NCBI GenBank assembly: GCA_050736715.1
Contig: JBOHWK010000169.1
Span: 73-64,072, forward strand
Direction of reading: 5' to 3'
Length of the DNA stretch: 64,000 nt
Origin: Candidatus Binataceae bacterium
GTDB taxonomy: Bacteria > Desulfobacterota > Binatia > Binatales > Binataceae
Program-made: the position numbers and the translations under genes
Shown: positions 621 to 15,513 of the stretch, piece after piece
Layout of the letters: each line of letters starts with the position of its first letter
How positions within the stretch are numbered: position 1 is the stretch's first letter
Notes under the pieces: model-generated
The model's database searches: none
What the model saw: the letters and a program-made list of their open reading frames with translations, nothing else
What the model was told of the DNA's origin: nothing

Positions 621-878
621 ATGGCTGCCGTATCCAAGAAGCTCGAAGATGAGGCGATGAGGCTTCCAGCGCGTTCGCGGGCGCGCTTGGCGGAGCGATT
701 GCTCGCCAGCTTGGACGAGACCGGTCCTGAGAGAAGCCGAAGGAAAGCCGCCGATCCGTATGCCGGGGAATTGTGGATCGCCGAAGCGGAGCGGCGCGCG
801 GAAGAACTCGCCAGCGGCAAGGTCAGGGGAATACCCGCCGGGAAAGCGGTAAGCAGGGCGCGCGCGGCGCTTCGGTGA
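621..878 (+). CDS. type II antitoxin, putative addiction-module component (TIGR02574-like)
   Basis: 85 aa; AGELWIAEAERRAEELASGKV C-terminal motif typical of this antitoxin family; stop overlaps the downstream toxin start (GTGA). Confidence 0.6.
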   Translation: MAAVSKKLEDEAMRLPARSRARLAERLLASLDETGPERSRRKAADPYAGELWIAEAERRAEELASGKVRGIPAGKAVSRARAALR

Positions 879-1180
879 CCGCGGCGGTTTTTCACCCCTT
901 GGCCGAGCGGGAACTTGTCGAGTCAGCCAAATTTTACGAGCTGAGCGCAGCCGGACTGGGGGAAGATTTCATCGGGCAGGTGGAGCGCACGCTGGCTAGG
1001 ATTGCCGCCAATCCCGAAGCCGGAAGCCCGCTCACCAAGACGATCCGGCGCCAGCTTGTCCGGCGCTTCCCATTCGCGATTTTGTACCAGCCCAAGCCGG
1101 CGGGATTATTCGTGGTCGCAGTTATGCACGTGCGCCGCCGGCCCGGCTATTGGAAGGGCCGGCTGCACGCGAAACAGTGA
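875..1180 (+). CDS. RelE/ParE-family toxin (plasmid stabilisation system protein)
   Basis: GTG at 875 overlapping the antitoxin stop; ~101 aa; ...RRFPFAILYQPKPAGLFVVAVMHVRRRP resembles the RelE/ParE C-terminus. Confidence 0.6.
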   Translation: MTAAVFHPLAERELVESAKFYELSAAGLGEDFIGQVERTLARIAANPEAGSPLTKTIRRQLVRRFPFAILYQPKPAGLFVVAVMHVRRRPGYWKGRLHAKQ

Positions 1181-1358: not shown

Positions 1359-2822
<1,464 letters not shown>

Positions 2823-2831
2823 CGATCCACG

Positions 2832-3254
2832 ATGGCTGACGCATTCCAATTCCGGCTGATCACGCCGGCCGGAGTGGTCTTTTCCGGCGATGCCGATCGG
2901 GTGTCCGCCACGGGCGCGCTCGGCGATTTTGGGGTGCTGCCGGCGCACGCGAATTTCATCACCGCGCTCGCTCCTGGATTCCTTGAAGTGAAGCTGCCCG
3001 GCGGCGCGGCGCAATCGTGGGTCGTTTCCGGCGGCTTGGCGGAAGTCAAAGACGGCGCGATGACGGTGCTGGCGAACGGGACGGAATTGCCCGATAACGT
3101 CGATGGGGAAGCGGCCGCCAAGGACGAAAAAGAGGCCGGCGCGGCGCTCGCGCGGAAAAGCACCTACGATCCCGATTACCCGGCCGCTCTTGAAGCGTTG
3201 CAACTCGCCCGCGCCCGGATGCGGGCCGCGGCGCTCAAATCTGCCGCGCGCTGA
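2832..3254 (+). CDS. atpC: F0F1 ATP synthase subunit epsilon
   Basis: 140 aa immediately after atpD; N-terminal beta-sandwich motif FRLITPAGVVFSGDADRVSATGALGDFGVLPAHA. Confidence 0.9.
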   Translation: MADAFQFRLITPAGVVFSGDADRVSATGALGDFGVLPAHANFITALAPGFLEVKLPGGAAQSWVVSGGLAEVKDGAMTVLANGTELPDNVDGEAAAKDEKEAGAALARKSTYDPDYPAALEALQLARARMRAAALKSAAR

Positions 3255-3467
3255 TCAGTCCGCCATCCACCAGCGCCGGACGGCGACCAGGGACCAGACT
3301 CCCTCGACCAGCCCGAACGGCCACGCGCCTTGAAGAAATCCATAAGCGGACCCCAGCACGCATGCTCCCGCGAACGCCAGAATGAACCACGGGCTGCGGC
3401 CTTCCAGCGCATAGCACACCATCATCGCCGTCACCGCAAACAGACCGAAAAGCGTGAGTCCGCTCAT
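3255..3467 (-). CDS. small hydrophobic membrane protein (2 predicted TM helices), hypothetical
   Basis: ATG at 3467 (revcomp of cat 3465-3467) preceded by GGAGG; 70 aa MSGLTLFGLFAVTAMMVCYALEGRSPWFILAFAGACVLGSAYGFLQG...; the longer upstream-extended ORF in the track lacks an RBS. Confidence 0.4.
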   Translation of the reverse strand: MSGLTLFGLFAVTAMMVCYALEGRSPWFILAFAGACVLGSAYGFLQGAWPFGLVEGVWSLVAVRRWWMAD

Positions 3468-3542
3468 ACGCCTCCAAAGGTGGCAGATTGCCGGAAGCCG
3501 GGCCAGCGAGAAGATGCCGCCCCGCTCGATTTTGCAAATTGA

Positions 3543-3571
3543 TTGACAGGGCCGGTGGCGGGGCGATAAAA
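3543..3571 (+). promoter_or_regulatory. candidate sigma70-type promoter for the cytochrome cluster (TTGACA-N17-ATAAAA)
   Basis: TTGACA at 3543-3548, 17-nt spacer, A/T-rich -10-like hexamer 3566-3571, ~70 nt upstream of the first cytochrome gene. Confidence 0.3.
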
Positions 3572-3643
3572 AGCGGCTGCCAGTTGTTGGATCGGTCCGC
3601 AAGCGGAGGAGCGCGATAATTCGCGCGCGGGCCGAATCGCAGC

Positions 3644-5254
3644 GTGGCGTGGGAGGACGCATCGAAATTGAAGCGGTTGGGTGGTATCGCCCGAATCGTG
3701 GCCGCGATTGCCGCAATGGTGGCTGTCGCGGGATGCGGTTATGCGCCGGGGTTTACCCGGCTGTCAAAAATCGAGCAGCCGAAACCGAAGAAATCGACGT
3801 TCTTCCTCGCTTCCGCCCACTGCCAATTGTGCCATCCCGCGGAGTACGAGGAATGGCGCACCTCGATGCATGCGTATGCGCAGCACAGCCCCGTCTTTCT
3901 CTCGTTCAACGATTTCGTCCTCAAATCGAGCGGCGGGTCGCTGGGCGATTTTTGCGAACGCTGCCATACCCCCGTCGGGATGTCGTCGGGCGAAAGCCCG
4001 GTCGAGCCTAATTCCAAGCGATCCGAAGCCGCCCTCGACAGCGTCGGCTGCATCGCGTGCCACTCGGAGCACACCAATAACGCCGAAGCGTCCGGGGTAA
4101 TCCATGTTCCGGTAAACGGCGACAGCGAACCAATTATTTACGGACCCTACTACGGCTACGACGAGCCGGGCGCGCCCAAGAATCCGGCGATGCGCCTGAT
4201 CAAAACGCCCCACGAATCGCGCCATTCCGACTATTTCACCCACGCGCGATTGTGCGCGGCCTGCCATGACGTGTTCTCGCCCGACGGCTTCCGAATCGAG
4301 GAAGCGTACAGCGAATGGAAGAACGGCCCCTACGCGCGGCGCGGCATCCAATGCGAGAACTGCCACATGGGGCCGATTCCCGGCAAACCGTTCGCGCGGA
4401 CGGAATTCACCCGCGACTACATAGTCGATCCCAATCTCTTTCCCAACGCGCCGAAGCGGTACCGCTCCAACCATCGTTTCACCGGTCCCGACTATTCCCT
4501 GCTCGCGGCGTTCGGACAGAATGCGCTCTCGCTCGACAGCGCGTCGTTCAAGAAATTGGAGGCGCAACTCGAAACCCAGCGGGAGACGTTGTTGCGCAAT
4601 GCCGCCACGATGCGGGTGAAGCTGCCCGGCGGCGTGACGGCGGGAGCGGCGCTGCCGATTACGGTCGCGGTGACCAATTCGGGTGCGGGGCATAATCTTC
4701 CGACCGGATTCGCGGCGGAGCGGCAATTGTGGCTCGAGGTGATCGTCACCGACTCAACCGGAAGGCAAATCTTCATCTCCGGCAACACCGATGAAAACGG
4801 CGACCTGCTCGATCCCGACAGCGAGGAAGTCCGCGCGGGCAAGCTGCCGATCGATTTGGACCTATTCAACCTCGAGGCGCAATTCATCAATCTCGATTTC
4901 AAGGGCACCGATGCCGAGAACATCAGCACCGTCAACCGCTTCCTCGACCCGGTTCCGTTCGTGACCCCTCCCCAGACCCCATCCCTCATCAACGGAAATG
5001 TTCCGGCGGGCCGCATCTTCAAGCGCGGAATCCCGCCGCTGGAGACGCGGACGGCGGACTACCGGGTGGAGGTTCCATGGGACGCGGCGGGTCCGCTGAC
5101 CGTATCGGTTCGGCTGCGCTACCGGAATTTGCCGCCCCATCTGCTCGCCGAACTCGGCATCCCGAAATATCGAGCGAAGCTAAGAGTCGTGGACTTGGCC
5201 ACGTTCAAGAAACAGGTTGCGATCGATTCGGCCGCGGTCTCCAGCGCGCGTTGA
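3644..5254 (+). CDS. pentaheme c-type cytochrome, predicted lipoprotein
   Basis: GTG start; signal peptide ending in lipobox VAGC; five CXXCH (CQLCH, CERCH, CIACH, CAACH, CENCH) in the first ~240 aa followed by a ~300-aa non-heme domain. Confidence 0.8.
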   Translation: MAWEDASKLKRLGGIARIVAAIAAMVAVAGCGYAPGFTRLSKIEQPKPKKSTFFLASAHCQLCHPAEYEEWRTSMHAYAQHSPVFLSFNDFVLKSSGGSLGDFCERCHTPVGMSSGESPVEPNSKRSEAALDSVGCIACHSEHTNNAEASGVIHVPVNGDSEPIIYGPYYGYDEPGAPKNPAMRLIKTPHESRHSDYFTHARLCAACHDVFSPDGFRIEEAYSEWKNGPYARRGIQCENCHMGPIPGKPFARTEFTRDYIVDPNLFPNAPKRYRSNHRFTGPDYSLLAAFGQNALSLDSASFKKLEAQLETQRETLLRNAATMRVKLPGGVTAGAALPITVAVTNSGAGHNLPTGFAAERQLWLEVIVTDSTGRQIFISGNTDENGDLLDPDSEEVRAGKLPIDLDLFNLEAQFINLDFKGTDAENISTVNRFLDPVPFVTPPQTPSLINGNVPAGRIFKRGIPPLETRTADYRVEVPWDAAGPLTVSVRLRYRNLPPHLLAELGIPKYRAKLRVVDLATFKKQVAIDSAAVSSAR

Positions 5255-5260
5255 GCCGCG

Positions 5261-6706
5261 ATGCGAGTGCGACGGGTGCCAATTTCCGCAATCAGAAAGG
5301 CGAAAGCCGCCGCGATAATTTTCGCGATGATTATGCTCGCGCCGGCCGGCGCGGCGGCGTTTACGGTATTCGGCGCCGATTTCATCTCGCCGGGACAGGT
5401 CCCGGATTCAAATTGGACGCTGTTCGGAGAGACGCTCAATCCGCGCCTCGACGTGGACGGCGACATCCGGATTCAATTCAACAACTACCGGCTCGGAGCT
5501 CCGGCGCCGCCGCCATCCAGCGGCATCGCCTTCCTCTATTCGCCGCCACCGCCGGTCATTACGGGTCAGACGTTCGGGCAATTCGTGCCGGAAGCCGACT
5601 TTGAAGCGAATCTGCAATTGACCGCGACGCAGCGGATTAACGTGCTGTTCCGGCCGTTCGAGGGTGGCGATCGCGAGCCGACGATTTGCGAATTTGCCGC
5701 GCCGAAAAAAGGCTGCACGTTTCAGGAGGAAGCCGCCCCCGCCGCGCTGTATTACGAGGGCCAGCCGTTCAACTGGCTAAGTCCCACCGACCGGCTGCCG
5801 CTGGACTTCAATGTTGCGGTGGGGCGGATTCCGTTCGTGCTGCAGAATGGCCTGTTCTTCGAGAACATCTTCGACGGCTTCGCGATCTCCAAGAACAATA
5901 TCCAGTTGGGCGACCTGTCGAATTTGAACGTAATCTACTTTCTGACTCTCGGAGAGACGCAGGGCGGCGTGAATTTCCGCGACGAGCAGCAGCAGCGGAA
6001 GAAGCTGATGGGCGGGTCGGTCGATTTCGACTGGTTCGATTATTTCTTCGAGGCCGAGTACGCACGCAGCTACGGCAACAATCCGATTCCGGGCGACGGC
6101 GCCGATCTGAACCGGAGTTTCATGGCGGCTTCCGTGACCCGCAATTTCGGCGGAGAGGCCGGCGCCACGCTGCGCGCGCTGGGAAATACCGGGAATGCGA
6201 CTAGCGGCGCGGGAGGGCTGTTCGCGTTCGAGTTCAACAAATTGGTTGGCCCGGCGCAGGGCTACGTCAATGTCTTCGGCGCCACGCAAAACTGGCTTCC
6301 GCTATCGGTGGAAGGATCGGCGCTGACCCGCGAGGGAATCCTGTTCGACTTCGACCGGCTGGCGAATTTTCCCCAGCTCAATCCGCGCGGTTCCAACAGC
6401 ATCGGCGGCGCAATCGGAGCGATATTCTGGCCCAAAGCCCAAACCACCTACACGCCGGAAATCGGCTGGCTCATCGACAACAAACCCAATAACAGCAACG
6501 ACCAGATCGGCGCCGCCTTCGAGATTCAGTCGGACTTGGCCTCGCTCCTGATTCCCGGCGACGCGCCGGCGGAACTCCAGCGGCGCGGGCTATTGTATGG
6601 CACGCTCGCGCGGCTTACCTTTACTGGGATACAAAACATGAACCGCGGAGTGGCGGGCGAGCGGTTCGATTACGGGGAGCGCTTGGAGTTAATCTACCAG
6701 TTCTGA
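5261..6706 (+). CDS. outer-membrane beta-barrel protein (porin-like), no heme motif
   Basis: Starts 6 nt after the lipoprotein cytochrome; Sec signal peptide (AAIIFAMIMLAPAGAAAF); Gly/Asn/Tyr-rich alternating pattern; C-terminal ...LELIYQF with terminal Phe typical of OM beta-barrels. Confidence 0.55.
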   Translation: MRVRRVPISAIRKAKAAAIIFAMIMLAPAGAAAFTVFGADFISPGQVPDSNWTLFGETLNPRLDVDGDIRIQFNNYRLGAPAPPPSSGIAFLYSPPPPVITGQTFGQFVPEADFEANLQLTATQRINVLFRPFEGGDREPTICEFAAPKKGCTFQEEAAPAALYYEGQPFNWLSPTDRLPLDFNVAVGRIPFVLQNGLFFENIFDGFAISKNNIQLGDLSNLNVIYFLTLGETQGGVNFRDEQQQRKKLMGGSVDFDWFDYFFEAEYARSYGNNPIPGDGADLNRSFMAASVTRNFGGEAGATLRALGNTGNATSGAGGLFAFEFNKLVGPAQGYVNVFGATQNWLPLSVEGSALTREGILFDFDRLANFPQLNPRGSNSIGGAIGAIFWPKAQTTYTPEIGWLIDNKPNNSNDQIGAAFEIQSDLASLLIPGDAPAELQRRGLLYGTLARLTFTGIQNMNRGVAGERFDYGERLELIYQF

Positions 6707-6719
6707 GGGAGGAGCGAAG

Positions 6720-7082
6720 ATGATTAAGCAAAGTCTAATTTTGGCTGCCGCGGCCGTGCTCGCGATGCCGGCCGCGTCCGCGTTTGCCGCGGGAAACGCC
6801 GCCGCCGGCGCCGCAGTCGCCGCCAAGAAATGCGCGGGATGCCATGGCGCGACAGGCGCGGGCAACGGTCCGGAGTTGCAGATGCTGAATGTCACCGTCC
6901 CGCCGGTTCCCTGGACGGACAAGGCGAAGATGTCCAAGTTCAGCGACGCCTATCTCACCAAGATCGTCACCGATGGTGGCCGCGCGGTCGGAAAAGGGCC
7001 GCTGATGGCGCCGTTCAAGGGCAAGCTTACCGCCGCGCAGATAAGCGACGCGATCGCCTACATCAGGTCGCTCGCGAAATAG
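6720..7082 (+). CDS. monoheme class I cytochrome c (c55x/c6-like), periplasmic
   Basis: 120 aa; signal peptide; single CAGCH heme site; downstream Met-rich loop (GPLMAPFKG) typical of a Met sixth ligand. Confidence 0.8.
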   Translation: MIKQSLILAAAAVLAMPAASAFAAGNAAAGAAVAAKKCAGCHGATGAGNGPELQMLNVTVPPVPWTDKAKMSKFSDAYLTKIVTDGGRAVGKGPLMAPFKGKLTAAQISDAIAYIRSLAK

Positions 7083-7099
7083 AATCCGGCGGTGCGGGA

Positions 7100-7798
7100 G
7101 TGAAAGCTAATCCGCTCGACAGCGCATTCGCGTTTCTGAAGATCGGCCATCAACAGGGCGAGCAATGGGGCACAGCGCTCGATTGGGCGATTATCTTCAC
7201 GCTGGTCCTGAGCGCATCGATCATCGTCCTCGTAATGGTCAGCCGAGCCGCATACCGGGGACGGCAGGAACAGCCCCCGGCGATTTGGCTGAACGTGCTC
7301 GCATTGGGCATATTCCCCGTGCTGCTCCTATTTTTCGGAAATTTCGCTGTATTCAGCTACGCGGAGCAGGAGCAATTTTGCGCATCATGCCATCTCACGA
7401 TGCAGCCGTACATCAATGACATCGACAATCCAAGCAGCAAAAGCCTGGCCGCCTGGCACCATCAGAACCACTTTTCGCCGGGCGGCGAGGAGGCCTGCTA
7501 CACCTGCCACGCCGACTACGGAATTCACGGCACCTTCAGGGCCAAACTGTCGGGCCTGCACGACGCGTATGCGTATGCAACGCACACCTATCGTCTGCCG
7601 ATTAAGCTCAGGAGGCCATTCAGGAACAGCCTGTGCTTAAAGTGCCATAACAGCACCAGGCTGTTCATGGCGGTCGATTCGCACTTGGGCGAGGACAACA
7701 AGGTTTCGAGCGCAATTTTGGACAATTCGCTGCAGTGCACGGTCTGCCACGGCCCCGCGCACCGGCTCGAACAATTTAAGAAGGCGGCGAAAACTTAG
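7100..7798 (+). CDS. NapC/NirT/NrfH-family membrane-anchored tetraheme cytochrome c (quinol dehydrogenase)
   Basis: GTG at 7100 preceded by GGGAG; one N-terminal TM helix (WAIIFTLVLSASIIVLVMV) then four CXXCH (CASCH, CYTCH, CLKCH, CTVCH); ~230 aa, the family's architecture. Confidence 0.8.
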   Translation: MKANPLDSAFAFLKIGHQQGEQWGTALDWAIIFTLVLSASIIVLVMVSRAAYRGRQEQPPAIWLNVLALGIFPVLLLFFGNFAVFSYAEQEQFCASCHLTMQPYINDIDNPSSKSLAAWHHQNHFSPGGEEACYTCHADYGIHGTFRAKLSGLHDAYAYATHTYRLPIKLRRPFRNSLCLKCHNSTRLFMAVDSHLGEDNKVSSAILDNSLQCTVCHGPAHRLEQFKKAAKT

Positions 7799-7800
7799 CC

Positions 7801-8346
7801 ATGCCCAGTCTTCAAGTCCGAAGAGGTAATTGGCCGCCGCGATTGCTCACCGCGGCGCAGATAATGGCCGGGCTCGTCGCGCTGATCGTGCTATTCGCGA
7901 CTTTGACCCTGAATCCATTTCTGATTCTCGGTTTCACATTCCTTGAGGTTCTGCTTCCGATCGCCGTGGTGTGCTTCTTTGTCGTGGCAGTCGCTTCGCT
8001 CCATCCCACGATTACCGAATTTTTCGAACCGGGGGACGTAATCTTTGAGGAGGGGACGGAGGGAAGACACCTCTACTTGATTAAAAAAGGCCGCGTTGAA
8101 CTCCTTAAAAAGAACCCGGAAGGAGCCTTCGAAGTCGTCTCACAGCTGAGCGAAGGACAGCGTTTCGGCTACGCCGCGATCTTCCATCGCCTCCACCGCA
8201 TCTATACCGCTCGCGCGGCCGGCAAATGCGAAGTTGTGAAGATGACACCCGCCGGATTCTTTGCGTCGGTCGAACCCGCCGAAGCGGAACGCATCCTCCA
8301 GTTTGGCGCCGCGCTGACGCTCGAACAGGGAAAGCCGAATCAGTGA
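7801..8346 (+). CDS. membrane protein with a C-terminal cyclic-nucleotide-binding (CAP-family) domain
   Basis: Two predicted TM helices followed by GDVIFEEGTEGRHLYLIKKGRVEL...GYAAIF, matching the cNMP-binding beta-roll signature; 2 nt after the NapC-like gene. Confidence 0.65.
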   Translation: MPSLQVRRGNWPPRLLTAAQIMAGLVALIVLFATLTLNPFLILGFTFLEVLLPIAVVCFFVVAVASLHPTITEFFEPGDVIFEEGTEGRHLYLIKKGRVELLKKNPEGAFEVVSQLSEGQRFGYAAIFHRLHRIYTARAAGKCEVVKMTPAGFFASVEPAEAERILQFGAALTLEQGKPNQ

Positions 8347-8437
8347 CTGTTCCATGCCGGCGGATTCCTTTCGCTTGCCGATCCGCCAGCAAATTGAGTA
8401 GAGTTGGCGACGATTTGCCGATCGGGGGAAGAATGTC

Positions 8438-11071
8438 ATGAAGCGGGGGATTATAGTCGCGCTGCTTCTGTTGATCGCCGGGTTTCCCGGCAGCCTGCTC
8501 GCCGCCGCTCCCGCAAAAGCTCCCACATGTACGCCGCTGCCTGCGGCTTCGACGCCCGGCTTCGCCACGATTCTCCTGACCTACATGGACAACTTCTGCT
8601 ACCTGAGTTGGGAGCATGACGCTCAAATCCGGTCGGCCAAAGGCACCCATCCGTATGTAAAGGTCTATTACTCGCCATCAATGTGGACGTGGCTCGAAGC
8701 CGGCGACCGCGAGGCCACCGTTCCCGACGGCGCGATGCTGGTAAAGGAACAGTACCAGACCCTTACCGCGCCGCTTTCCGAATGGACGATCATGGTCAAG
8801 GACCACACCGGATCGTGGGACGGCTGGTATTGGGCGGATTTCGCTTCGCCGAAGAAAGGCCCGCCGAAGTCACCGCCGTCCGCCACGGACGCATCCGGCG
8901 CGGCAAGTACCGTTGCAGCCGCTGCGCAGGGCAAGTATGGATGCGGGGAGCCGACGCTTACTTTCGCCGGCTTCGGTTCCGGCAACGGCAACACCTGTAT
9001 CGGATGCCATGCGTCGGCGGCGGACGGCCAGGGAACCTTTTCCAGCACCGATTACGTAGGCGCGGCATTGACGCCGCCCGATCTCAACGCGCCGCCGATT
9101 CTCGACAATATCCACCAGATTGGCGCCCGCCTGGCGGATATGCGCGCGATTGCCGCGCTCGATGCCGCCGGCGCAACTCCGCTTGAGAACGCAGTATCGC
9201 CCGATGACATCCGTCCGCTCTCCGCCGGGAAGGCGGCGTGCATGCCGCCCGAATCGCTCGACCACGTGGTGGCAGGCGGACAGCCCACCGGCGGCCCGGA
9301 AGAATTCCTGACTTCGGATCAATGCGCGTCGTGCCACGATGCGACCGGGACAATCTCGGGCACGGGCCGGGCGGATATTCCGAGTATGTTGTGGCCCGAC
9401 GCGATCACGCCGCTCGCGAATCTCTCCGAATACGGCGAGTGGCGCTATTCGATGATGGGGCTGGCGGGGCGCGATCCGATCTTCTTTTCGCAGCTCAATT
9501 CGGAATCCACCATCCATGACAATCTGCAAGGATTGCCCGGCAACCCCAGCCCTCCGCTGTTCGTGCAGAACTTATGTCTTCATTGCCACGGCGTGATGGG
9601 ACAGCGGCAACTGCAGATCGATACCGGCGGCACCGGGCTCTTGTCTCGCGCGGAACTGAACGATCCGAATTCAAAATACGGCGCGCTCGGCCGCGACGGC
9701 ATCTCGTGCCTCGTTTGCCATCATATTTCTCCCGAAGGTCTGGGCGACCCTTCCACCTTCACCGGCGATTTCAACGTCGGTCCCGCGACCGAAGTTTACG
9801 CCCAGTACCCCGATCCGATAACGTTGCCGATGGATAACGCGCTGGGTATCACGCCTGAGGACGGCAGCCAGATCGGCGATCCCGCGATGTGTGGATCGTG
9901 CCACACGATCATCCTGCCGGTGTACGCCGCCAACGGGAATCAAGTCATGGAAGGCGGCGTGCCCAAAACATTTTACGAGCAGGCGACATTTCCAGAATGG
10001 CTGAACAGCAACTTCGCAACGGTTCCCTGCCAAACCTGCCATATGCCGGACACGTATCATGGCAGTCCGCTCTCGTACAAAATCGCGAACATCGAGGACA
10101 ATACCTTCCCGGCGTTCCCGTTCGTCGCCCCCGCCGAGGACATCACGATGCAAGTGCGGCAGCCGTTCAACCGCCACACTCTCCTCGGCATCAACGTCTT
10201 CGCGCTGGAGATGTTCGGGCAGTTCCGCACCGCGCTGGGGCTTTATGCGACGGACCCACAATTGCCCGGCAATGCCGCAAAGGCGATTTCCAGCCAAAAA
10301 ACCGCAGTCGTGGAAGCGGTGAATGAGGCCGTTACCCAGACCGCGACGGTCGATATTCTTTCCGCTACCAGAGTTGGCGGCACGATTCAGGCCGATGTGA
10401 CAGTGACGAACCTGGCCGGGCATAGTTTCCCGTCTGGGGTGGGCTTCCGCCGCGCATTCGTGGATTTTCAGGTGCTCGGTCCGGGCGGGAAAGTACTGTG
10501 GGCATCGGGCGACACGAATAAGAAAGGGGTGATCGTCGGCATCAAGCGCAAGCCGCTCATCACGGAATACTTCACTCCCAAGCAGCAGGCCTTCCAGCCG
10601 CACTTTTGGATCGGCAATCCGATTACCAGCGAAAACCAGGCGCAGATTTACGAGGAATTGGTCGCCGATCCGCAGGGACAATTGACCACCAGCTTTCTCA
10701 GCTTGGACAACAAGGTAAAGGACAACCGGCTCCAGCCGCAGGGATGGTCCGTGGACGGGCCGTTCGCCGAGGAAACCGGCCCGGCCGGCGGCGCGTCTGA
10801 CGACCCCGATTACACGACCACCGACAGCCCCGGCTCCAACACGATTCGTTACGAGGTGCCGATTAATTCCAAGACCACGAACGCGATCGCGGTGAGCGCG
10901 ACCTTGTACTATCAGGCAATCCCGCCCTATTACCTGTATATGCGCTCGCACGACGCGAGCGGCCCCGACACCTCCCGTTTGAACGATTTCACCAAGCGGC
11001 TGCGCGTCAAAGGCACCCCCGTGGACAACTGGCGGCTGCAAATCGCGACGCAAACGCAGAATATTCAGTAG
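8438..11071 (+). CDS. large secreted multiheme c-type cytochrome (6 CXXCH) with an N-terminal non-heme domain
   Basis: 877 aa; Sec signal; CIGCH, CASCH, CLHCH, CLVCH, CGSCH, CQTCH; N-terminal ~150 aa is aromatic-rich (FCYLSWEHD...DGWYWADF) without heme motifs; GGGGAAG RBS. Confidence 0.8.
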   Translation: MKRGIIVALLLLIAGFPGSLLAAAPAKAPTCTPLPAASTPGFATILLTYMDNFCYLSWEHDAQIRSAKGTHPYVKVYYSPSMWTWLEAGDREATVPDGAMLVKEQYQTLTAPLSEWTIMVKDHTGSWDGWYWADFASPKKGPPKSPPSATDASGAASTVAAAAQGKYGCGEPTLTFAGFGSGNGNTCIGCHASAADGQGTFSSTDYVGAALTPPDLNAPPILDNIHQIGARLADMRAIAALDAAGATPLENAVSPDDIRPLSAGKAACMPPESLDHVVAGGQPTGGPEEFLTSDQCASCHDATGTISGTGRADIPSMLWPDAITPLANLSEYGEWRYSMMGLAGRDPIFFSQLNSESTIHDNLQGLPGNPSPPLFVQNLCLHCHGVMGQRQLQIDTGGTGLLSRAELNDPNSKYGALGRDGISCLVCHHISPEGLGDPSTFTGDFNVGPATEVYAQYPDPITLPMDNALGITPEDGSQIGDPAMCGSCHTIILPVYAANGNQVMEGGVPKTFYEQATFPEWLNSNFATVPCQTCHMPDTYHGSPLSYKIANIEDNTFPAFPFVAPAEDITMQVRQPFNRHTLLGINVFALEMFGQFRTALGLYATDPQLPGNAAKAISSQKTAVVEAVNEAVTQTATVDILSATRVGGTIQADVTVTNLAGHSFPSGVGFRRAFVDFQVLGPGGKVLWASGDTNKKGVIVGIKRKPLITEYFTPKQQAFQPHFWIGNPITSENQAQIYEELVADPQGQLTTSFLSLDNKVKDNRLQPQGWSVDGPFAEETGPAGGASDDPDYTTTDSPGSNTIRYEVPINSKTTNAIAVSATLYYQAIPPYYLYMRSHDASGPDTSRLNDFTKRLRVKGTPVDNWRLQIATQTQNIQ

Positions 11072-11123
11072 CGCCGCCGCGCCGCACTGCGGCGTTGCAT
11101 TACTAATCAGTGAGGATACGCCG

Positions 11124-12140
11124 ATGCGCGCAATTTGGATTACCAAGGCCGGCGGGCCCGAAGTGCTGGAGGTTCGCGAGACGCCCGATCCCGTTCCCAA
11201 GCCCGGCGAAGTACGGGTCCGCGTCGCCGCGTGCGGATTGAATTTCGCCGAATTGATGGCGCGGCAGGGGCTGTACCCCGACGCGCCCAAGATTCCGTGC
11301 GTGGTCGGCTATGAAGCCGCAGGCACGATCGATGCCGTCGGCGATGGCGCCGACCCCGGCCTAATCGGCAAGCGCGTGGTGGTGCTGTGCCGGTTCGGCG
11401 GGCACGCCGATCAGGTCTGCGTCACGGCGGCGAACGCCTTCCCGATCCCGGTCGAGATGAGCTTCGAGGAAGCCGCCGCGATTCCGGTGAATTACTTGAC
11501 CGCGTACCAGATGCTGTTCCGGGTTGCCTCGATTCATCCGGGCGAATCGGTCCTGATTCACATGGCGGCGGGCGGCGTGGGAATCGCGGCGCTGCAATTA
11601 TGCCGCACCGTCGAGGGAATCGTCACCTTCGGCACCGCGTCGTCGTCGAAGCACGAGGTAATCCGCGCCAACGGCTGCGGGTACCCGATCGATTACCACC
11701 AGACCGATTATTTCGCGGAAGTCATGCGGCTGACCGGCGGCAAGGGCGTGGATGTGGTCCTCGATCCGCTCGGCGGCAACGATTGGCGCAAGGGTTACAA
11801 ATTGCTCAAGTCGGCGGGAAAATTGATCGCGTTCGGATTCTCCAACATGGCGTCCGGGAACACGCGCAACTACTGGCGGATGCTCCGCCAAATCGTGCGG
11901 GTTCCGATCTTCACCCCGATGGGCCTGATGGACAAGAATCGCAGCGTCGCCGGCGTCAACATGGGCCACCTGTGGGACGATCCCTACCTGCCGTTCGCGA
12001 TGAACCGGCTCTTAATCATGTATCGCGAGGGACAGATCAAGCCGCATATCGATTCGACGTTTCCGTTTGCGCAGGCGGCGCAGGCGCACTTGCGTCTTCA
12101 GGAAGGAAAGAATATCGGGAAAGTAGTGATGACTCCGTAG
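11124..12140 (+). CDS. zinc-binding alcohol dehydrogenase-family oxidoreductase (NADPH:quinone reductase-like, MDR)
   Basis: 338 aa; GEVRVRVAACGLNFAELMARQG N-terminal catalytic-domain motif; Rossmann AAGGVG. Confidence 0.85.
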   Translation: MRAIWITKAGGPEVLEVRETPDPVPKPGEVRVRVAACGLNFAELMARQGLYPDAPKIPCVVGYEAAGTIDAVGDGADPGLIGKRVVVLCRFGGHADQVCVTAANAFPIPVEMSFEEAAAIPVNYLTAYQMLFRVASIHPGESVLIHMAAGGVGIAALQLCRTVEGIVTFGTASSSKHEVIRANGCGYPIDYHQTDYFAEVMRLTGGKGVDVVLDPLGGNDWRKGYKLLKSAGKLIAFGFSNMASGNTRNYWRMLRQIVRVPIFTPMGLMDKNRSVAGVNMGHLWDDPYLPFAMNRLLIMYREGQIKPHIDSTFPFAQAAQAHLRLQEGKNIGKVVMTP

Positions 12141-13023: not shown

Positions 13024-15513
13024 TCATTCGGTAGAACCGGAAGGCGCCGGCGTGGGGGTGAATCCCGGCATCGCGACGCCGACTGGGAAGTTCAGGTGCG
13101 TCCGGCCTCCGCGGATGACGATGCTCGGTGGGAGGTCGCAGGTGGGCGCCGGATTGCCACTGCAATCGAAATCATCCCAGACCAGGAGGCTGTTGGTCAG
13201 GTGATCCACCACATAGAGATCGTCGTTGTCGTAGTTGTTCCAAGCGATCCCGACCGGCCGTTTGAGTTTGGTCTTCTTGCCGGCGATCGTTCCGATCAGA
13301 GGCGACGCATTCGTTAACGCGGTCGTGGGGTCGCAGAAGTTATTCGGGTTAGTCGGGCCTCCCACGCAGCACGAATACGGAGTTTGGTACCCGGTGCATA
13401 CGCTGTTCGTGATATCGAAAATCTTAATCCCGACTTGGCCGCAAGTACCCGTCCCCGTGCCGGTGCAACAAGCGTATGGGGTGCCATTGCAGAAACCCTG
13501 ACCGGGTCCGCTGCAGCAACTATTCGGCGCCTCGAAGCCGGTGCACTCGCTATTCGGGCCGTCGCAGGTACCCGTCCCTGCGCCGCTGCAACACGCATAC
13601 GGCGCGCCGAGTCCGGTACAGTCGCCGTTTATGTTGTCGCAGGTGCCCGTTCCTGCGCCGGTACAACAGGCAAACGGCGCTGGATCGGTAGGGGGAGTGC
13701 TGTCGGGACCGGCAGTGCATTTGGTATTGATATCGAGGCATTTGGAGGTTAGCGCGGGATTGCCGACGTCGGTAACGAACAAGTTGCTGCTGTCCGCGGT
13801 GACGGCGAGGAATTGCGGGCCGACCAGCGGACCGGCTAATAGCGGCGGAAGGTTCGCGCCCACGGCGCCTACCGGAATTACGTCTCCGGCGGCGTCCGGC
13901 GCGAATACCAGGACTGCCGCAATGCCCTTGGTTTCGCCGGCGGCGTCCGTGACAAACAGATTGTTATTGCCGTTGAATGCCAGCCCGGACGGGCCGAGCA
14001 GGACGGTGTTGCATCCCGCAATCGTGGCCAGCTTTGTGATCGTTGGCGGCTGCAGGCCCGGAACCGGGCAACTGGTGCAGGCGGCGTTTTGCTCGAAGAT
14101 TTCGCCCGCGTTAATCGGAGAGTTATTGCCCGACGCGTCGGATTCGTTCGTGTAATATTCGTTAATTGACCCGACGCTCGCCGCCGCGCCCAAGCCCGCA
14201 CTTATGCTGTTGCAGGTGCCGGTGCCGGGGCCTGTGCAGCAGGTATAAGGCGCGGCGCAACTGCCAACCCCCAATCCGGTGCAACACGCAACCGGCTCCT
14301 CATTGCCGGTGCATCCGGCGTTGCCTACCCCGGTGCACTCGGCGTTCGTGGGGGGAGTCGCCGGATCGCAGGTTATGGGGCAGAGCAGGCCGTTAATCCC
14401 GGTTGCGTTAGCTCCGCTGCAAGTGGTGTCGGTTCGCTCGCAATCTCCCGTTCCCGCCCCGGTACAGCACGGGAAAGCGCTTGGCTCCATTGTTATCTGG
14501 TTAATGCCGGTTCCCGGCCCGGTGCACTCCACACTTGGAAGAGGGGTATGGACAGTCTCGGTGGGACTCACGAAAAACCCATAATTCGACACGGCGAAAT
14601 ACTCGCCGGTGTTGCCGTTTCCTTGCGCGATGCCATCGGCAACGAGGGGATCGTCGGTATTGTACGGATTGGCGAAGGCGATGTCCTCCGGTGCGAACAG
14701 CCCCGCTTGGTCGCCGTCAGCAAGTCCCGCGGGGCAGGAACCGGCCTCCGGGCCGGTGCAGCATGGGTAAGGTATTCCGCAAGTGCCGGCGTTTTTGCCG
14801 ATGCAGCAGGAATTCGGCAGCCCTTTGGCGGTGCATCCGGAGTTGCCGCAGGTGCCCATCCCATCGCCGGTGCAACATGGATACGGCTCCGCGAATGCCG
14901 TGCAGGCGGCGTTAGGACTGGAAGTCGGTCCCGACAAGCACTCCGAGTTGCTGGAAGAATTCGGCATCGGAGAAGAAATCGTTGCGGCTGGGGGCGTATT
15001 GCCGTTGGACGAACCGGGCGAGAACAATCCGATTGAAAAGAAAAGCTGCGTGGCCAAGCCCGCGTTGACTTCGGTGTTCGTTTCGACCATGGGACTGTTG
15101 GACAGCGAACCGACCCCGATCCCGCCGACGACGGCGACGGACGGGGCGATCATGCCGGTTTTGTTGCCCTTGATTTCGGTGGCGGGCTTGGCATTGCCGT
15201 GGGAGCAGGGAGCGAAAGTCTCGACCGAGCCGGCGCCGCCGCCGTAGTTGGATACCGCCAGGCCCGCGAGTGGAGCGGTGGGAAATTCCGACGTATCCAT
15301 CCCGTCGGGGCATTTGCCGCTTTTCGCGTCCGCCTTCGCCTTGGACCCCGCGAAGCTGACGCCCGCCGTCGCCGCAAGCATCGCGGCGATCGCGAACGCC
15401 GCCGCCGGAACCGCAAGCCGGCGAACTGCGGCGGCAAGACGCCCCGCCGCCGTGCGGGCGGGCGAAACTCCATGCGCCTCTTGAGCCATCGTTTGCATTT
15501 TTCCCTGCGTCAT
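13024..15513 (-). CDS. large secreted Cys/Gly/Thr-rich repeat protein with NHL-like beta-propeller repeats
   Basis: 829 aa; ATG at 15513 with GGGGGT RBS; signal peptide (RRLAVPAAAFAIAAMLAATAG); ~11 degenerate repeats of PY-x-CC(T/S)G-x-G(T)G(T)C; NLFVTD / DLYVVDHLTNSLLVWD NHL-type motifs. Confidence 0.7.
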   Translation of the reverse strand: MTQGKMQTMAQEAHGVSPARTAAGRLAAAVRRLAVPAAAFAIAAMLAATAGVSFAGSKAKADAKSGKCPDGMDTSEFPTAPLAGLAVSNYGGGAGSVETFAPCSHGNAKPATEIKGNKTGMIAPSVAVVGGIGVGSLSNSPMVETNTEVNAGLATQLFFSIGLFSPGSSNGNTPPAATISSPMPNSSSNSECLSGPTSSPNAACTAFAEPYPCCTGDGMGTCGNSGCTAKGLPNSCCIGKNAGTCGIPYPCCTGPEAGSCPAGLADGDQAGLFAPEDIAFANPYNTDDPLVADGIAQGNGNTGEYFAVSNYGFFVSPTETVHTPLPSVECTGPGTGINQITMEPSAFPCCTGAGTGDCERTDTTCSGANATGINGLLCPITCDPATPPTNAECTGVGNAGCTGNEEPVACCTGLGVGSCAAPYTCCTGPGTGTCNSISAGLGAAASVGSINEYYTNESDASGNNSPINAGEIFEQNAACTSCPVPGLQPPTITKLATIAGCNTVLLGPSGLAFNGNNNLFVTDAAGETKGIAAVLVFAPDAAGDVIPVGAVGANLPPLLAGPLVGPQFLAVTADSSNLFVTDVGNPALTSKCLDINTKCTAGPDSTPPTDPAPFACCTGAGTGTCDNINGDCTGLGAPYACCSGAGTGTCDGPNSECTGFEAPNSCCSGPGQGFCNGTPYACCTGTGTGTCGQVGIKIFDITNSVCTGYQTPYSCCVGGPTNPNNFCDPTTALTNASPLIGTIAGKKTKLKRPVGIAWNNYDNDDLYVVDHLTNSLLVWDDFDCSGNPAPTCDLPPSIVIRGGRTHLNFPVGVAMPGFTPTPAPSGSTE

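What the first reader, a model, noticed from the sequence alone, without database searches (positions are those of the whole stretch)
3644..6706. Lipoprotein pentaheme cytochrome immediately followed (6 nt) by a heme-less beta-barrel: candidate porin-cytochrome pair
The first gene has a textbook lipobox (VAVAGC) and five CXXCH in ~240 aa, then a 300-aa heme-free domain. The next ORF has a Sec signal, no heme motif and ends in ...LELIYQF, the C-terminal Phe signature of outer-membrane barrels. The near-zero intergenic distance suggests translational coupling. A surface or OM-anchored cytochrome with a partner barrel is the minimal unit of trans-outer-membrane electron transfer.
Basis: inference. 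Interest (0 to 1): 0.75.

Follow-up and report, generated by a model that had tools for sequence, protein, structure and literature searches.

The report
PCC4/Ptd-type porin–pentaheme cytochrome pair
A lipid-anchored five-heme cytochrome gene and the outer-membrane barrel gene right after it are real and almost always found together; they belong to a widespread "porin-cytochrome" family (PCC4/Ptd) that has been described but never tested, here in a trimmed version whose 18-strand barrel looks too narrow to hold the cytochrome.

Summary
ORF1 (3644-5254) has a signal peptide, a lipobox Cys31 and five CXXCH motifs. After a 6-nt spacer comes ORF2 (5261-6706), which has no heme motif and ends in LELIYQF.

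ORF2 models as an 18-strand barrel, closest to MOMP, AlgE and OprD and not to MtrB. ORF1 models as a five-heme domain plus an Ig-like sandwich, and its only strong structural match is the T. tepidum pentaheme c552 (5ZE8).

The pairing is close to obligate:
- 52 of 53 non-redundant metagenomic loci with enough downstream sequence carry the barrel directly after the cytochrome, down to 29% identity.
- Natural single-chain cytochrome–barrel fusions exist.

The fused form sits in an operon with the defining parts of "PCC4" (He et al. 2017) and "ptdABCDEFG" (2023 preprint). That family is hypothesised to be a porin-cytochrome complex but has never been characterised.

The window holds a reduced variant:
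- PtdA-like lipoprotein and PtdB-like barrel
- monoheme cytochrome c
- NapC/NrfH-like tetraheme
- membrane cNMP-binding protein
- a hexaheme paralog with a P460-like N-terminus

However, the barrel size and the globular cytochrome fold argue against an MtrAB-style sheath. A periplasm-side cytochrome meeting a diffusible substrate at the pore fits better. The function is untested.

The parts
3644..5254 (+). PtdA-like pentaheme c-type cytochrome, predicted lipoprotein (536 aa). Signal peptide and lipobox VAGC (Cys31); helical five-heme domain (about residues 57-300); Ig-like beta-sandwich (about 321-530) carrying an invariant G-H350-N-x-P-T-G motif.
5261..6706 (+). PtdB-like outer-membrane 18-strand beta-barrel (481 aa) with a Sec signal peptide and the C-terminal beta-signal LELIYQF. 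It matches no Pfam or NCBIfam family.
6720..7082 (+). Periplasmic class-I monoheme cytochrome c (120 aa, CAGCH at residue 38), preceded by GGGAGGAG. Likely the electron shuttle.
   Evidence: Pfam Cytochrom_C and Cytochrome_CBB3, E about 5e-12. Sequence. Conserved next to the barrel in Binatia-type loci.
7100..7798 (+). Membrane-anchored tetraheme cytochrome of the NapC/NirT/NrfH type (232 aa, GTG start, two transmembrane helices, CXXCH at 94, 133, 179, 213). Likely the link to the quinone pool.
   Evidence: Pfam Cytochrom_NNT 1e-7 and NCBIfam NrfH 9e-9, both far below the equivalog cut-offs. Transmembrane helices and heme motifs. Orthologs in 23 related loci, including the L084/L086 clade.
7801..8346 (+). 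Small membrane protein with three transmembrane helices and a cyclic-nucleotide-binding domain (181 aa). It parallels PtdE but lacks the Fe-S clusters. Its role is unknown.
   Evidence: Pfam cNMP_binding 3.6e-18. Transmembrane helices. A recurrent neighbour in at least four clades.
8438..11071 (+). 877-aa secreted hexaheme cytochrome: a weak P460-like N-terminal domain followed by a PtdA-like heme core and a beta-sandwich with a GH.FP.G motif. It is a paralog of ORF1 with no barrel of its own and is probably part of the same module.
   Evidence: Pfam P460 E=1.7e-5, below the gathering score. BLASTP against ORF1, 23% identity, E=1e-13. Heme motifs. An ortholog lies upstream of the pair in L006, L026, L027, L037.

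Best explanation
The two genes encode an obligate outer-membrane pair of the PCC4/Ptd family. One is a pentaheme cytochrome with the T. tepidum c552 (LPC) fold, here tethered by an N-terminal lipid anchor. The other is a dedicated 18-strand beta-barrel. Shown: both folds, the near-obligate gene pairing, natural fusions, homology to PCC4/Ptd clusters, and co-encoded partners (a monoheme cytochrome c and a NapC/NrfH-like tetraheme). Inferred: the cytochrome sits on the periplasmic face of the barrel. The tether is a lipid anchor in this clade and a covalent link to the barrel's N-terminus in the fused clade. Clades with long Pro-rich linkers may use those as a tether, which is a guess. Because an 18-strand lumen cannot house a globular five-heme domain, the barrel would act as a gated pore. 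It would bring a small soluble redox substrate to the heme chain or carry its product away. The most plausible substrate is iron (Fe(II), or Fe(III) chelates), possibly Mn. This is the logic of Cyc2 split into two proteins, not an MtrAB-type insulated heme wire. Electrons would pass between this outer-membrane station and the quinone pool through the monoheme cytochrome c and the NapC/NrfH-like tetraheme. The direction of flow (substrate oxidation or reduction) is not determined.
For: Pairing: all 12 genomic or long-contig loci and 52 of 53 non-redundant metagenome loci with at least 700 nt downstream have the barrel right after the cytochrome on the same strand, from 78% down to 29% identity. 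This includes a cultured planctomycete (L004; hhalign probability 99.5%).

Fusions: P0409, P0441 and P0442 carry the cytochrome domain (A2 profile E about 1e-128) followed by the barrel domain (A1 profile E about 1e-21). There is no internal signal peptide, and two of the genomes are 71% identical to each other. A fusion to the barrel's N-terminus places the cytochrome on the periplasmic side, unless it is exported.

Family link: the fused gene in L095 is followed by an 8-heme MHC, a cNMP + 2x[4Fe-4S] protein, a five-helix inner-membrane protein with two WX3HX13H motifs, a decaheme and an FAD oxidoreductase. These are the PCC4/ptd components.

Route to the inner membrane: monoheme cytochrome c, NapC/NrfH-like tetraheme and cNMP protein lie within 2-17 nt of each other. 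This is the same component logic as MtoA-MtoB-MtoD-CymA described in PMC5566968.

Iron link: barrel-less homologs sit between imelysin and FTR1 iron-permease genes in Shinella. In Nitratiruptor they sit in the same arrangement, with an OprD porin, ferritin and a gene annotated only as 'transcriptional repressor' nearby. PCC4 was found in Zetaproteobacteria Fe(II) oxidisers.
Against: No experiment exists for any family member. No complex model could be computed, so the docking side and the state of the lumen (open or plugged) are inferred from strand number and fold only. The iron link rests on distant homologs (about 27% identity) and on the habitats of PCC4 carriers. The closest biochemically characterised relative of the fold, MccSep/ExtKL, is a polysulfide reductase. 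Ptd genes are highly transcribed in NO-transforming marine bacteria, and a P460-like paralog lies in the same cluster, so N or S chemistry is not excluded. The heme-ligand count comes from sequence conservation, not from a structure. Lipidation is confined to this clade. Mapping conservation onto the putative barrel topology did not clearly single out a periplasmic docking face.
Confidence: 0.5

Rival explanations
1. Classical MtrAB/MtoAB-like conduit. Part of the cytochrome is threaded through the barrel, so a continuous heme chain carries electrons across the outer membrane to or from insoluble minerals or electrodes.
For: The gene logic of cytochrome, barrel, monoheme c and NapC-family tetraheme mirrors mtoA-mtoB-mtoD-cymA. 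PCC4 and ptd were proposed as EET conduits. The pairing is strict and fusions exist. A conserved cytochrome segment (residues 416-459) is predicted disordered and could be a partner-binding or inserting element.
Confidence: 0.12
2. Periplasmic catalytic multiheme enzyme plus a substrate-specific uptake channel. PtdA reduces or oxidises a small non-metal compound (a sulfur species such as polysulfide, sulfite or tetrathionate, or a nitrogen species such as nitrite, NO or hydroxylamine) that enters through PtdB. Electrons come from or go to the quinone pool through an NrfH-like partner, as in NrfHA.
Against: There is no conserved Cys, Sec or CXXCK-type active-site signature: all 11 Cys are accounted for by heme motifs and the lipobox. 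Four invariant extra His plus an invariant Met can complete the coordination of all five hemes. The score against the ExtKL model is 40 bits versus a cut-off of 250. Small anions normally need no dedicated channel.
Confidence: 0.2
3. Assimilatory iron handling. The pair is a high-affinity iron-acquisition device (a ferric-chelate reductase or ferroxidase at an iron-specific pore) rather than a respiratory or lithotrophic module.
For: Homologous cytochromes lie between imelysin and FTR1 permease genes in Shinella and Nitratiruptor. In Nitratiruptor an OprD-type porin, ferritin and a gene annotated 'transcriptional repressor' are also nearby. Canonical ptd encodes a ferric-reductase-like inner-membrane protein and an NAD(P)H/FAD oxidoreductase. 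Planctomycete carriers have only the two genes.
Against: The FTR1-linked proteins are only about 27% identical and have no PtdB-family barrel. No FTR1, imelysin or Fur-type regulator gene lies in the window cluster. No conserved operator, such as a Fur box, was found upstream in 26 related loci. A NapC-like quinol link with a dedicated cytochrome c looks respiratory.
Confidence: 0.13
4. The barrel is an export or anchoring device that displays the cytochrome on the cell surface (autotransporter-like or Slam/SusCD-like). The cytochrome then works outside the cell.
For: The fused proteins have the passenger-then-barrel order of type Va autotransporters. ORF1 is a lipoprotein encoded next to a barrel.
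Against: c-type cytochromes fold and receive heme in the periplasm, and a roughly 55-kDa heme-loaded domain cannot pass an 18-strand pore (established knowledge of cytochrome c maturation and autotransporters). All encoded electron partners are periplasmic or in the inner membrane, and no heme path through the barrel would remain. Many clades lack a lipobox.
Confidence: 0.05

Closest known systems
PCC4 gene cluster (He et al. 2017, PMC5566968), also named the ptdABCDEFG operon (Elbon et al. preprint, 10.1101/2023.11.21.568154)
   Same: [quoted passage not shown] A tetraheme and a cNMP-binding protein are nearby. The window's two proteins are profile-homologous to the fused PtdA-PtdB of L095, whose operon has every PCC4/ptd hallmark.
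   Different: The window lacks the decaheme, the five-helix WX3HX13H inner-membrane protein, the Fe-S clusters and the FAD/NAD(P)H oxidoreductase. In their place it has a class-I monoheme cytochrome c and a two-helix NapC/NrfH-like tetraheme. The cytochrome here is a lipoprotein. The hosts are Binatia-like MAGs (named Candidatus Binataceae, Binatia or 'delta proteobacterium'), whose sampling environments were not checked here, whereas the described carriers are marine or saline Proteobacteria, Nitrospinae, Planctomycetes and Zetaproteobacteria. PCC4/ptd itself is a bioinformatic hypothesis with no experimental support.
Low-potential pentaheme cytochrome c552 (LPC) of Thermochromatium tepidum, PDB 5ZE8
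   Different: LPC is a soluble periplasmic protein of unknown function (as described). ORF1 adds a lipid anchor and about 150 extra C-terminal residues, and it is locked to a barrel partner. The gene neighbourhood of LPC could not be checked here.
MccSep / ExtKL of Geobacter sulfurreducens (periplasmic pentaheme polysulfide reductase; extHIJKL also encodes the porin-like ExtI)
   Same: Both have a five-heme cap with an Ig-like stem, in which a residue from the Ig-like domain reaches heme 2. Both lie in a cluster with an outer-membrane barrel gene.
MtrAB / MtoAB-MtoD-CymA and Geobacter OmaB-OmbB-OmcB porin-cytochrome complexes
   Same: A cytochrome gene lies next to a barrel gene. In the Mto cluster these are followed by a monoheme cytochrome c and a NapC-family tetraheme.
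   Different: There is no homology. Those barrels have about 20-26 strands and sheath an elongated 8-10-heme wire. Here the barrel has 18 strands and the cytochrome is a globular pentaheme.
Cyc2 (fused monoheme cytochrome-porin of Fe(II) oxidisers)
   Same: Cyc2 has a small barrel with a cytochrome at its periplasmic N-terminus and a substrate that enters the pore (from my own knowledge of the family). The natural PtdA-PtdB fusions have the same domain order.
   Different: Cyc2 has one heme and the two parts are fused. The window has two genes and five hemes. Homology was not tested, and no Cyc2-like match turned up in any search.
18-strand substrate channels: Campylobacter MOMP, AlgE, OprD/Occ, chitoporin, maltoporin
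   Different: Sequence identity is 7-12%. There are no Pfam or PDB sequence hits. hhalign against a neighbouring Alginate_exp barrel gives probability 0.2%. None of these channels is genetically locked to a cytochrome.

Membership tests
PCC4 / Ptd cluster | [quoted passage not shown] | tested here: met
PCC4 / Ptd cluster | Porin gene adjacent to the pentaheme gene | tested here: met
   6-nt spacer. 18-strand barrel. The A1 profile hits the barrel part of the L095 fusion, E about 1e-21.
PCC4 / Ptd cluster | Tetraheme cytochrome in the cluster | tested here: inconclusive
   A tetraheme is present (7100-7798), but it is a two-helix NapC/NrfH-like protein. Homology to PtdD or the PCC4 tetraheme was not tested. 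In L095 that position holds an 8-heme c554-like protein.
PCC4 / Ptd cluster | Decaheme periplasmic cytochrome | tested here: not met
   No ORF in the 64-kb window has more than 6 CXXCH motifs.
PCC4 / Ptd cluster | Conserved inner-membrane protein with five transmembrane helices and two WX3HX13H motifs (ferric-reductase-like) | tested here: not met
   The window scan found no ORF with two such motifs. The motif is present in L095.
PCC4 / Ptd cluster | Fe-S (PF13247) / cNMP-binding protein (PtdE) | tested here: inconclusive
   Window 7801-8346 has the cNMP-binding domain and three transmembrane helices but no Fe-S motifs. A relative at 44% barrel identity (L002) does have cNMP + Fer4.
MtrAB/MtoAB-type porin-cytochrome complex | Large (about 26-strand) MtrB-family barrel | tested here: not met
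MtrAB/MtoAB-type porin-cytochrome complex | MtrA/DmsE-family decaheme cytochrome | tested here: not met
   TIGR03508 scores 24 bits against a cut-off of 192; ORF1 has five hemes.
MtrAB/MtoAB-type porin-cytochrome complex | Cytochrome inserted in the barrel lumen, with hemes spanning the membrane | not testable with these tools
   No complex prediction and no model coordinates were available. Only strand number and fold argue against it.
MccSep / ExtKL | NCBIfam NF040886 at or above the cut-off; His/Cys-ligated heme 2 and a catalytic Sec/Cys in the Ig-like domain | tested here: not met
   39.9 bits against a cut-off of 250. There is no Cys outside the heme motifs and lipobox. The in-frame TGA between ORF1 and ORF2 is followed by a normal signal peptide, and same-frame spacing occurs in about one third of loci, as chance predicts.
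Bacterial lipoprotein (SPII substrate) | Signal peptide ending in a lipobox [LVI][ASTVI][GAS]C | tested here: met
   The lipobox is V28-A29-G30-C31 after a basic and hydrophobic leader. The Cys and a following G-[TY]-x-P-G-x-T-R-L tether are conserved in all Binatia-type homologs. Actual lipidation and sorting are not testable here.
Outer-membrane beta-barrel protein (BAM substrate) | Signal peptide, closed all-beta barrel, C-terminal aromatic beta-signal | tested here: met
OprD/Occ or AlgE (Alginate_exp) sequence families | Match to the Pfam family model | tested here: not met
   None of the 35 family members hits any porin Pfam, even at E<=1. hhalign against an Alginate_exp protein gives probability 0.2%.

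The most novel reading that the evidence does not exclude
PtdA-PtdB is a two-protein, pentaheme counterpart of Cyc2: a general outer-membrane 'redox gate' in which Fe(II)/Mn(II) or metal chelates enter an 18-strand pore and exchange electrons with a periplasm-side heme chain. Given its spread, it would be a major unrecognised route of metal oxidation or reduction in aerobic heterotroph-dominated phyla of soils and oceans. That spread covers thousands of 90%-identity clusters in Binatia, Planctomycetota, Acidobacteriota, KSB1, Rhodothermales and marine Proteobacteria. The Binatia form would be a minimal version wired to the quinone pool.
Probability: 0.25. Interest if true: 0.8.

Novelty: new variant of a known kind. 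Interest (0 to 1): 0.52.

Why it matters
The pair belongs to one of the most widespread candidate porin-cytochrome systems, and none of its members has been tested. There are at least 448 barrel representatives at 50% identity and more than 2,700 cytochrome clusters at 90% identity in one sister clade. This analysis adds several points that change how the family should be modelled and tested:
- The barrel has only 18 strands and the cytochrome is a globular LPC-fold protein, so the MtrAB-style picture drawn for PCC4/ptd is probably wrong.
- The gene pairing is close to obligate across phyla.
- Natural single-chain fusions exist, which fix the order of the two partners.
- Barrel-less relatives sit in FTR1 iron-uptake islands.
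- A compact, lipoprotein-anchored, quinol-linked variant exists in Binatia-like MAGs, outside the marine and saline lineages where the family was described.

If the pair proves to be a metal redox gate, iron and manganese cycling capacity would have to be assigned to many lineages now regarded as ordinary aerobic heterotrophs.

Tried and rejected
1. UGA read-through or selenoprotein fusion of ORF1 and ORF2, prompted by the ExtKL hit and the shared frame. Rejected: ORF2 starts with its own signal peptide, and same-frame spacing occurs in about one third of loci, as chance predicts.
2. Sequence-family assignment of the barrel. Pfam, NCBIfam and a PDB sequence profile gave nothing. hhalign against the neighbouring Alginate_exp barrel of L002 gave no relation.
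3. The genome-contig scan with the barrel profile reached only 8 close species, because the derived patterns were too narrow. Distant relatives had to be reached through the cytochrome instead.
4. Exact-sequence look-ups of P0150 and of the window's own ORF2 found nothing, so the source sample is unknown.
5. Direct comparison with a published PtdA sequence was impossible: only accession numbers are available. The link was made through L095 instead.
6. The promoter and terminator scan of 3200-11400 gave counts no higher than in shuffled sequence.
7. A search for a shared upstream operator, such as a Fur box, in 26 related loci found only GC-rich noise.
8. Mapping conservation onto a strand-parity topology of the barrel did not isolate a clear periplasmic docking face; the topology of residues 125-182 is itself uncertain.
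9. The afdb50 fold library was unavailable.
10. The Verrucomicrobia porin-MHC system (8-heme cytochrome, barrel of at least 20 strands) and PCC3 were considered and set aside as different systems.
Full report
**1. The observation.**
- ORF1 runs 3644-5254 (+) and encodes 536 aa from a GTG start. An alternative in-frame TTG lies at 3668, behind GGGAGG.
- It begins with a basic and hydrophobic leader that ends in the lipobox V-A-G-C31.
- It has exactly five CXXCH motifs, starting at residues 60, 104, 136, 204 and 237.
- It has 11 cysteines: ten in heme motifs plus the lipobox Cys.
- The last 295 residues have no heme motif.
- Its TGA stop (5252-5254) is followed by six bases and then the ATG of ORF2.
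- ORF2 runs 5261-6706 and encodes 481 aa. It has a signal-peptide-like N-terminus, no CXXCH, and the C-terminus LELIYQF.

On the same strand, 2-17 nt apart, come three further genes:
- a class-I monoheme cytochrome c (6720-7082, with a strong Shine-Dalgarno sequence);
- a two-helix tetraheme of the NapC/NirT/NrfH type (7100-7798);
- a small protein with three transmembrane helices and a cyclic-nucleotide-binding domain (7801-8346).

After a 91-nt gap comes an 877-aa hexaheme protein (8438-11071). No other multiheme gene lies in the window.

**2. What the two proteins are.**

*The barrel (ORF2).*
- It matches no Pfam, NCBIfam or PDB sequence.
- With an alignment of 35 homologs it folds as an all-beta barrel (pLDDT 81, pTM 0.74).
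- The terminal Phe is invariant in the family.

*The cytochrome (ORF1).*
- It folds (pLDDT 74, pTM 0.75) as a helical heme domain followed by a beta-sandwich.
- The relationship is also visible in sequence. The profile E-value is 4.7e-11, and the match includes the H-x-x-P-T-G motif of the sandwich domain and CHM at heme 5.
- Across 36 homologs the five CXXCH motifs, four further histidines (H76, H190, H277, H350) and M242 are invariant. No non-heme cysteine is conserved.
- The same fold class contains MccSep/ExtKL, a periplasmic polysulfide reductase whose active heme 2 is His/Cys-ligated next to a selenocysteine. ORF1 has neither residue and scores 40 bits against the ExtKL model, whose cut-off is 250.

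**3. The pairing is the real finding.**
- The barrel family has 56 close clusters, almost all from Binataceae-type MAGs. A profile search finds 448 representatives at 50% identity.
- In every long contig examined the cytochrome lies directly upstream of the barrel.
- A cultured planctomycete, Thalassoglobus polymorphus, has a 38%-identical cytochrome followed by a barrel that matches the family profile at 99.5% probability.
- A metagenome scan seeded with the cytochrome alignment returned 79 loci, from 78% down to 29% identity. Of the 53 non-redundant loci with at least 700 nt downstream, 52 have the barrel next, on the same strand.
- Three proteins from different genomes (P0409, P0441, P0442) are natural fusions: cytochrome, a linker of about 80 residues with no signal peptide, then the barrel.
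- Lipidation is specific to the Binatia-type clade. Planctomycete-type proteins instead carry an extra N-terminal heme domain, and their barrels carry long Pro-rich extensions. Another large clade has a long low-complexity N-terminus.

**4. It is a member of a described but uncharacterised family.** In L095 the fused gene is followed by five further genes:
- an 8-heme c554-like cytochrome;
- a cNMP-binding protein with two [4Fe-4S] motifs;
- a five-helix membrane protein with two WX3HX13H motifs and a TGxxG motif;
- a decaheme cytochrome;
- an FAD/NAD(P)-type oxidoreductase.

This is the composition of two published clusters. He et al. 2017 described "PCC4": a porin, cytochromes with 4, 5 and 10 hemes, an Fe-S protein, and an inner-membrane protein with that exact motif. 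[quoted passage not shown] Both papers propose a porin-cytochrome complex for extracellular electron transfer, and both state that the function is unknown. I found no follow-up characterisation.

The window therefore holds a reduced variant. PtdA and PtdB are present, and the cNMP protein is present without its Fe-S part. The decaheme, the inner-membrane protein and the flavoprotein are missing. In their place are a monoheme cytochrome c and a NapC/NrfH-like tetraheme, which is the MtoD/CymA logic of the Sideroxydans mto cluster as summarised. This gene set recurs in the Binatia-type loci, sometimes with the 877-aa paralog placed upstream.

**5. How it most likely works.**

*Shown:* the folds, the near-obligate pairing, the fusions, and the co-encoded route to the quinone pool.

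*Inferred:*
- An 18-strand lumen cannot hold a globular five-heme domain. Both termini of such barrels face the periplasm, so a fusion to the barrel's N-terminus puts the cytochrome on the periplasmic side. The lipid anchor of this clade is consistent with the same placement.
- The barrel would then act as a dedicated pore. It would deliver a small soluble redox substrate to the heme chain or remove its product. This is a Cyc2-like arrangement split into two proteins.
- Electrons would be relayed by the monoheme cytochrome c and the NapC-like tetraheme.
- The ligand count (four extra His plus one Met for five hemes, no catalytic Cys, Sec or Lys) favours outer-sphere electron transfer over small-molecule catalysis.
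- Iron is the leading candidate substrate. PCC4 occurs in Zetaproteobacteria Fe(II) oxidisers. Barrel-less homologs of the cytochrome lie between imelysin and FTR1 iron-permease genes in Shinella. In Nitratiruptor they do the same, with an OprD porin, ferritin and a gene annotated 'transcriptional repressor' nearby.

The direction of electron flow is open.

*Rivals:*
- a true through-barrel heme wire;
- a periplasmic S- or N-compound enzyme with an uptake channel, supported by the MccSep precedent, the NrfH-like partner, the P460-like paralog and ptd expression in NO-transforming bacteria;
- assimilatory iron uptake;
- surface display of the cytochrome.

**6. Limits.**
- No complex could be modelled and no model coordinates could be inspected, so the docking side and lumen state rest on strand number and fold.
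- A published PtdA sequence could not be compared directly.
- The conservation-by-topology analysis, the promoter and terminator scan and the operator search were uninformative.
- The source organism is inferred only from the names of homologs, mostly Candidatus Binataceae. One 100%-identical fragment is labelled Bryobacteraceae.

**7. Verdict.** The interpretation matches the published hypothesis for this family and is only partly supported, because the barrel and cytochrome geometry argue against the classical sheath model. I rate it a new variant of a known, uncharacterised kind, of moderate interest.

Noticed in passing
window 8438-11071 (+): An 877-aa secreted hexaheme cytochrome. It combines a weak cytochrome-P460-like N-terminal domain (E=1.7e-5, below Pfam's cut-off) with a PtdA-like heme core and a GH.FP.G beta-sandwich (23% identity to ORF1, E=1e-13). 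Orthologs lie upstream of the cytochrome-barrel pair in L006, L026, L027 and L037. This hints at nitrogen-oxide or hydroxylamine chemistry, or at a second entry point to the same electron chain.
   Followed up: partly
P0409 / L095:7001-10339, P0441 / L096:7001-10336, P0442: Natural single-polypeptide fusions of the pentaheme cytochrome and the barrel (about 1,050-1,110 aa, no internal signal peptide), sitting in full PCC4/ptd-type operons. I found no mention of such fusions in the papers I read.
   Followed up: yes
L092 (Shinella sp. HZN7 plasmid pShin-02) and L093 (Nitratiruptor sp. YY08-14 plasmid): Barrel-less homologs of the cytochrome (about 27% identity) are encoded between imelysin and FTR1-family iron permease genes. 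In Nitratiruptor an OprD-family porin, ferritin and a gene annotated 'transcriptional repressor' are also nearby. This looks like a distinct, apparently undescribed multiheme component of FTR1-type iron uptake.
   Followed up: partly
window 7801-8346 (+) and neighbours in L083, L084, L086, L087, L095, L096, L002: A cyclic-nucleotide-binding protein accompanies the cytochrome-barrel pair in at least four clades. It occurs with three transmembrane helices, with DUF1003, or with 2x[4Fe-4S]. Its role in a redox module is unexplained.
   Followed up: partly
window 4889-5020 (ORF1 residues 416-459): This segment is strongly conserved (G421, T422, N431, R432, P436, P442, G451, R457 and K460 are invariant or nearly so) yet is modelled with pLDDT about 30. 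It is either a heme-packing region that AlphaFold cannot place without cofactors, or a segment that becomes ordered only on a partner such as the barrel.
   Followed up: no
P0188, P0192, P0196, P0204, P0220, P0261 (distant barrel homologs): Distant homologs of the barrel carry N-terminal Pro/Glu/Ala-rich low-complexity extensions of roughly 400-850 residues in the sequences inspected (shorter ones exist among the other hits). The matching planctomycete-type cytochromes carry a sixth, N-terminal CXXCH domain (PF07635 in some). That domain may be a fused equivalent of the separate monoheme cytochrome c seen in the window.
   Followed up: partly
L088:2041-3537: This is the only cytochrome homolog with ample downstream sequence (3.6 kb) and no barrel gene. 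It has a lipobox-like LLAC motif.
   Followed up: no
window 13024-15513 (-): An 829-aa secreted, cysteine-rich protein with many repeats of the form CCTG-x-G-T-G-x-C. It has no Pfam match and its function is unknown.
   Followed up: no
window 621-1180 (+): Two small overlapping ORFs (621-878 and 773-1180) just upstream of atpD/atpC (1395-3254) resemble an antitoxin/toxin (addiction-module) pair. This is a judgement from the sequence only.
   Followed up: no
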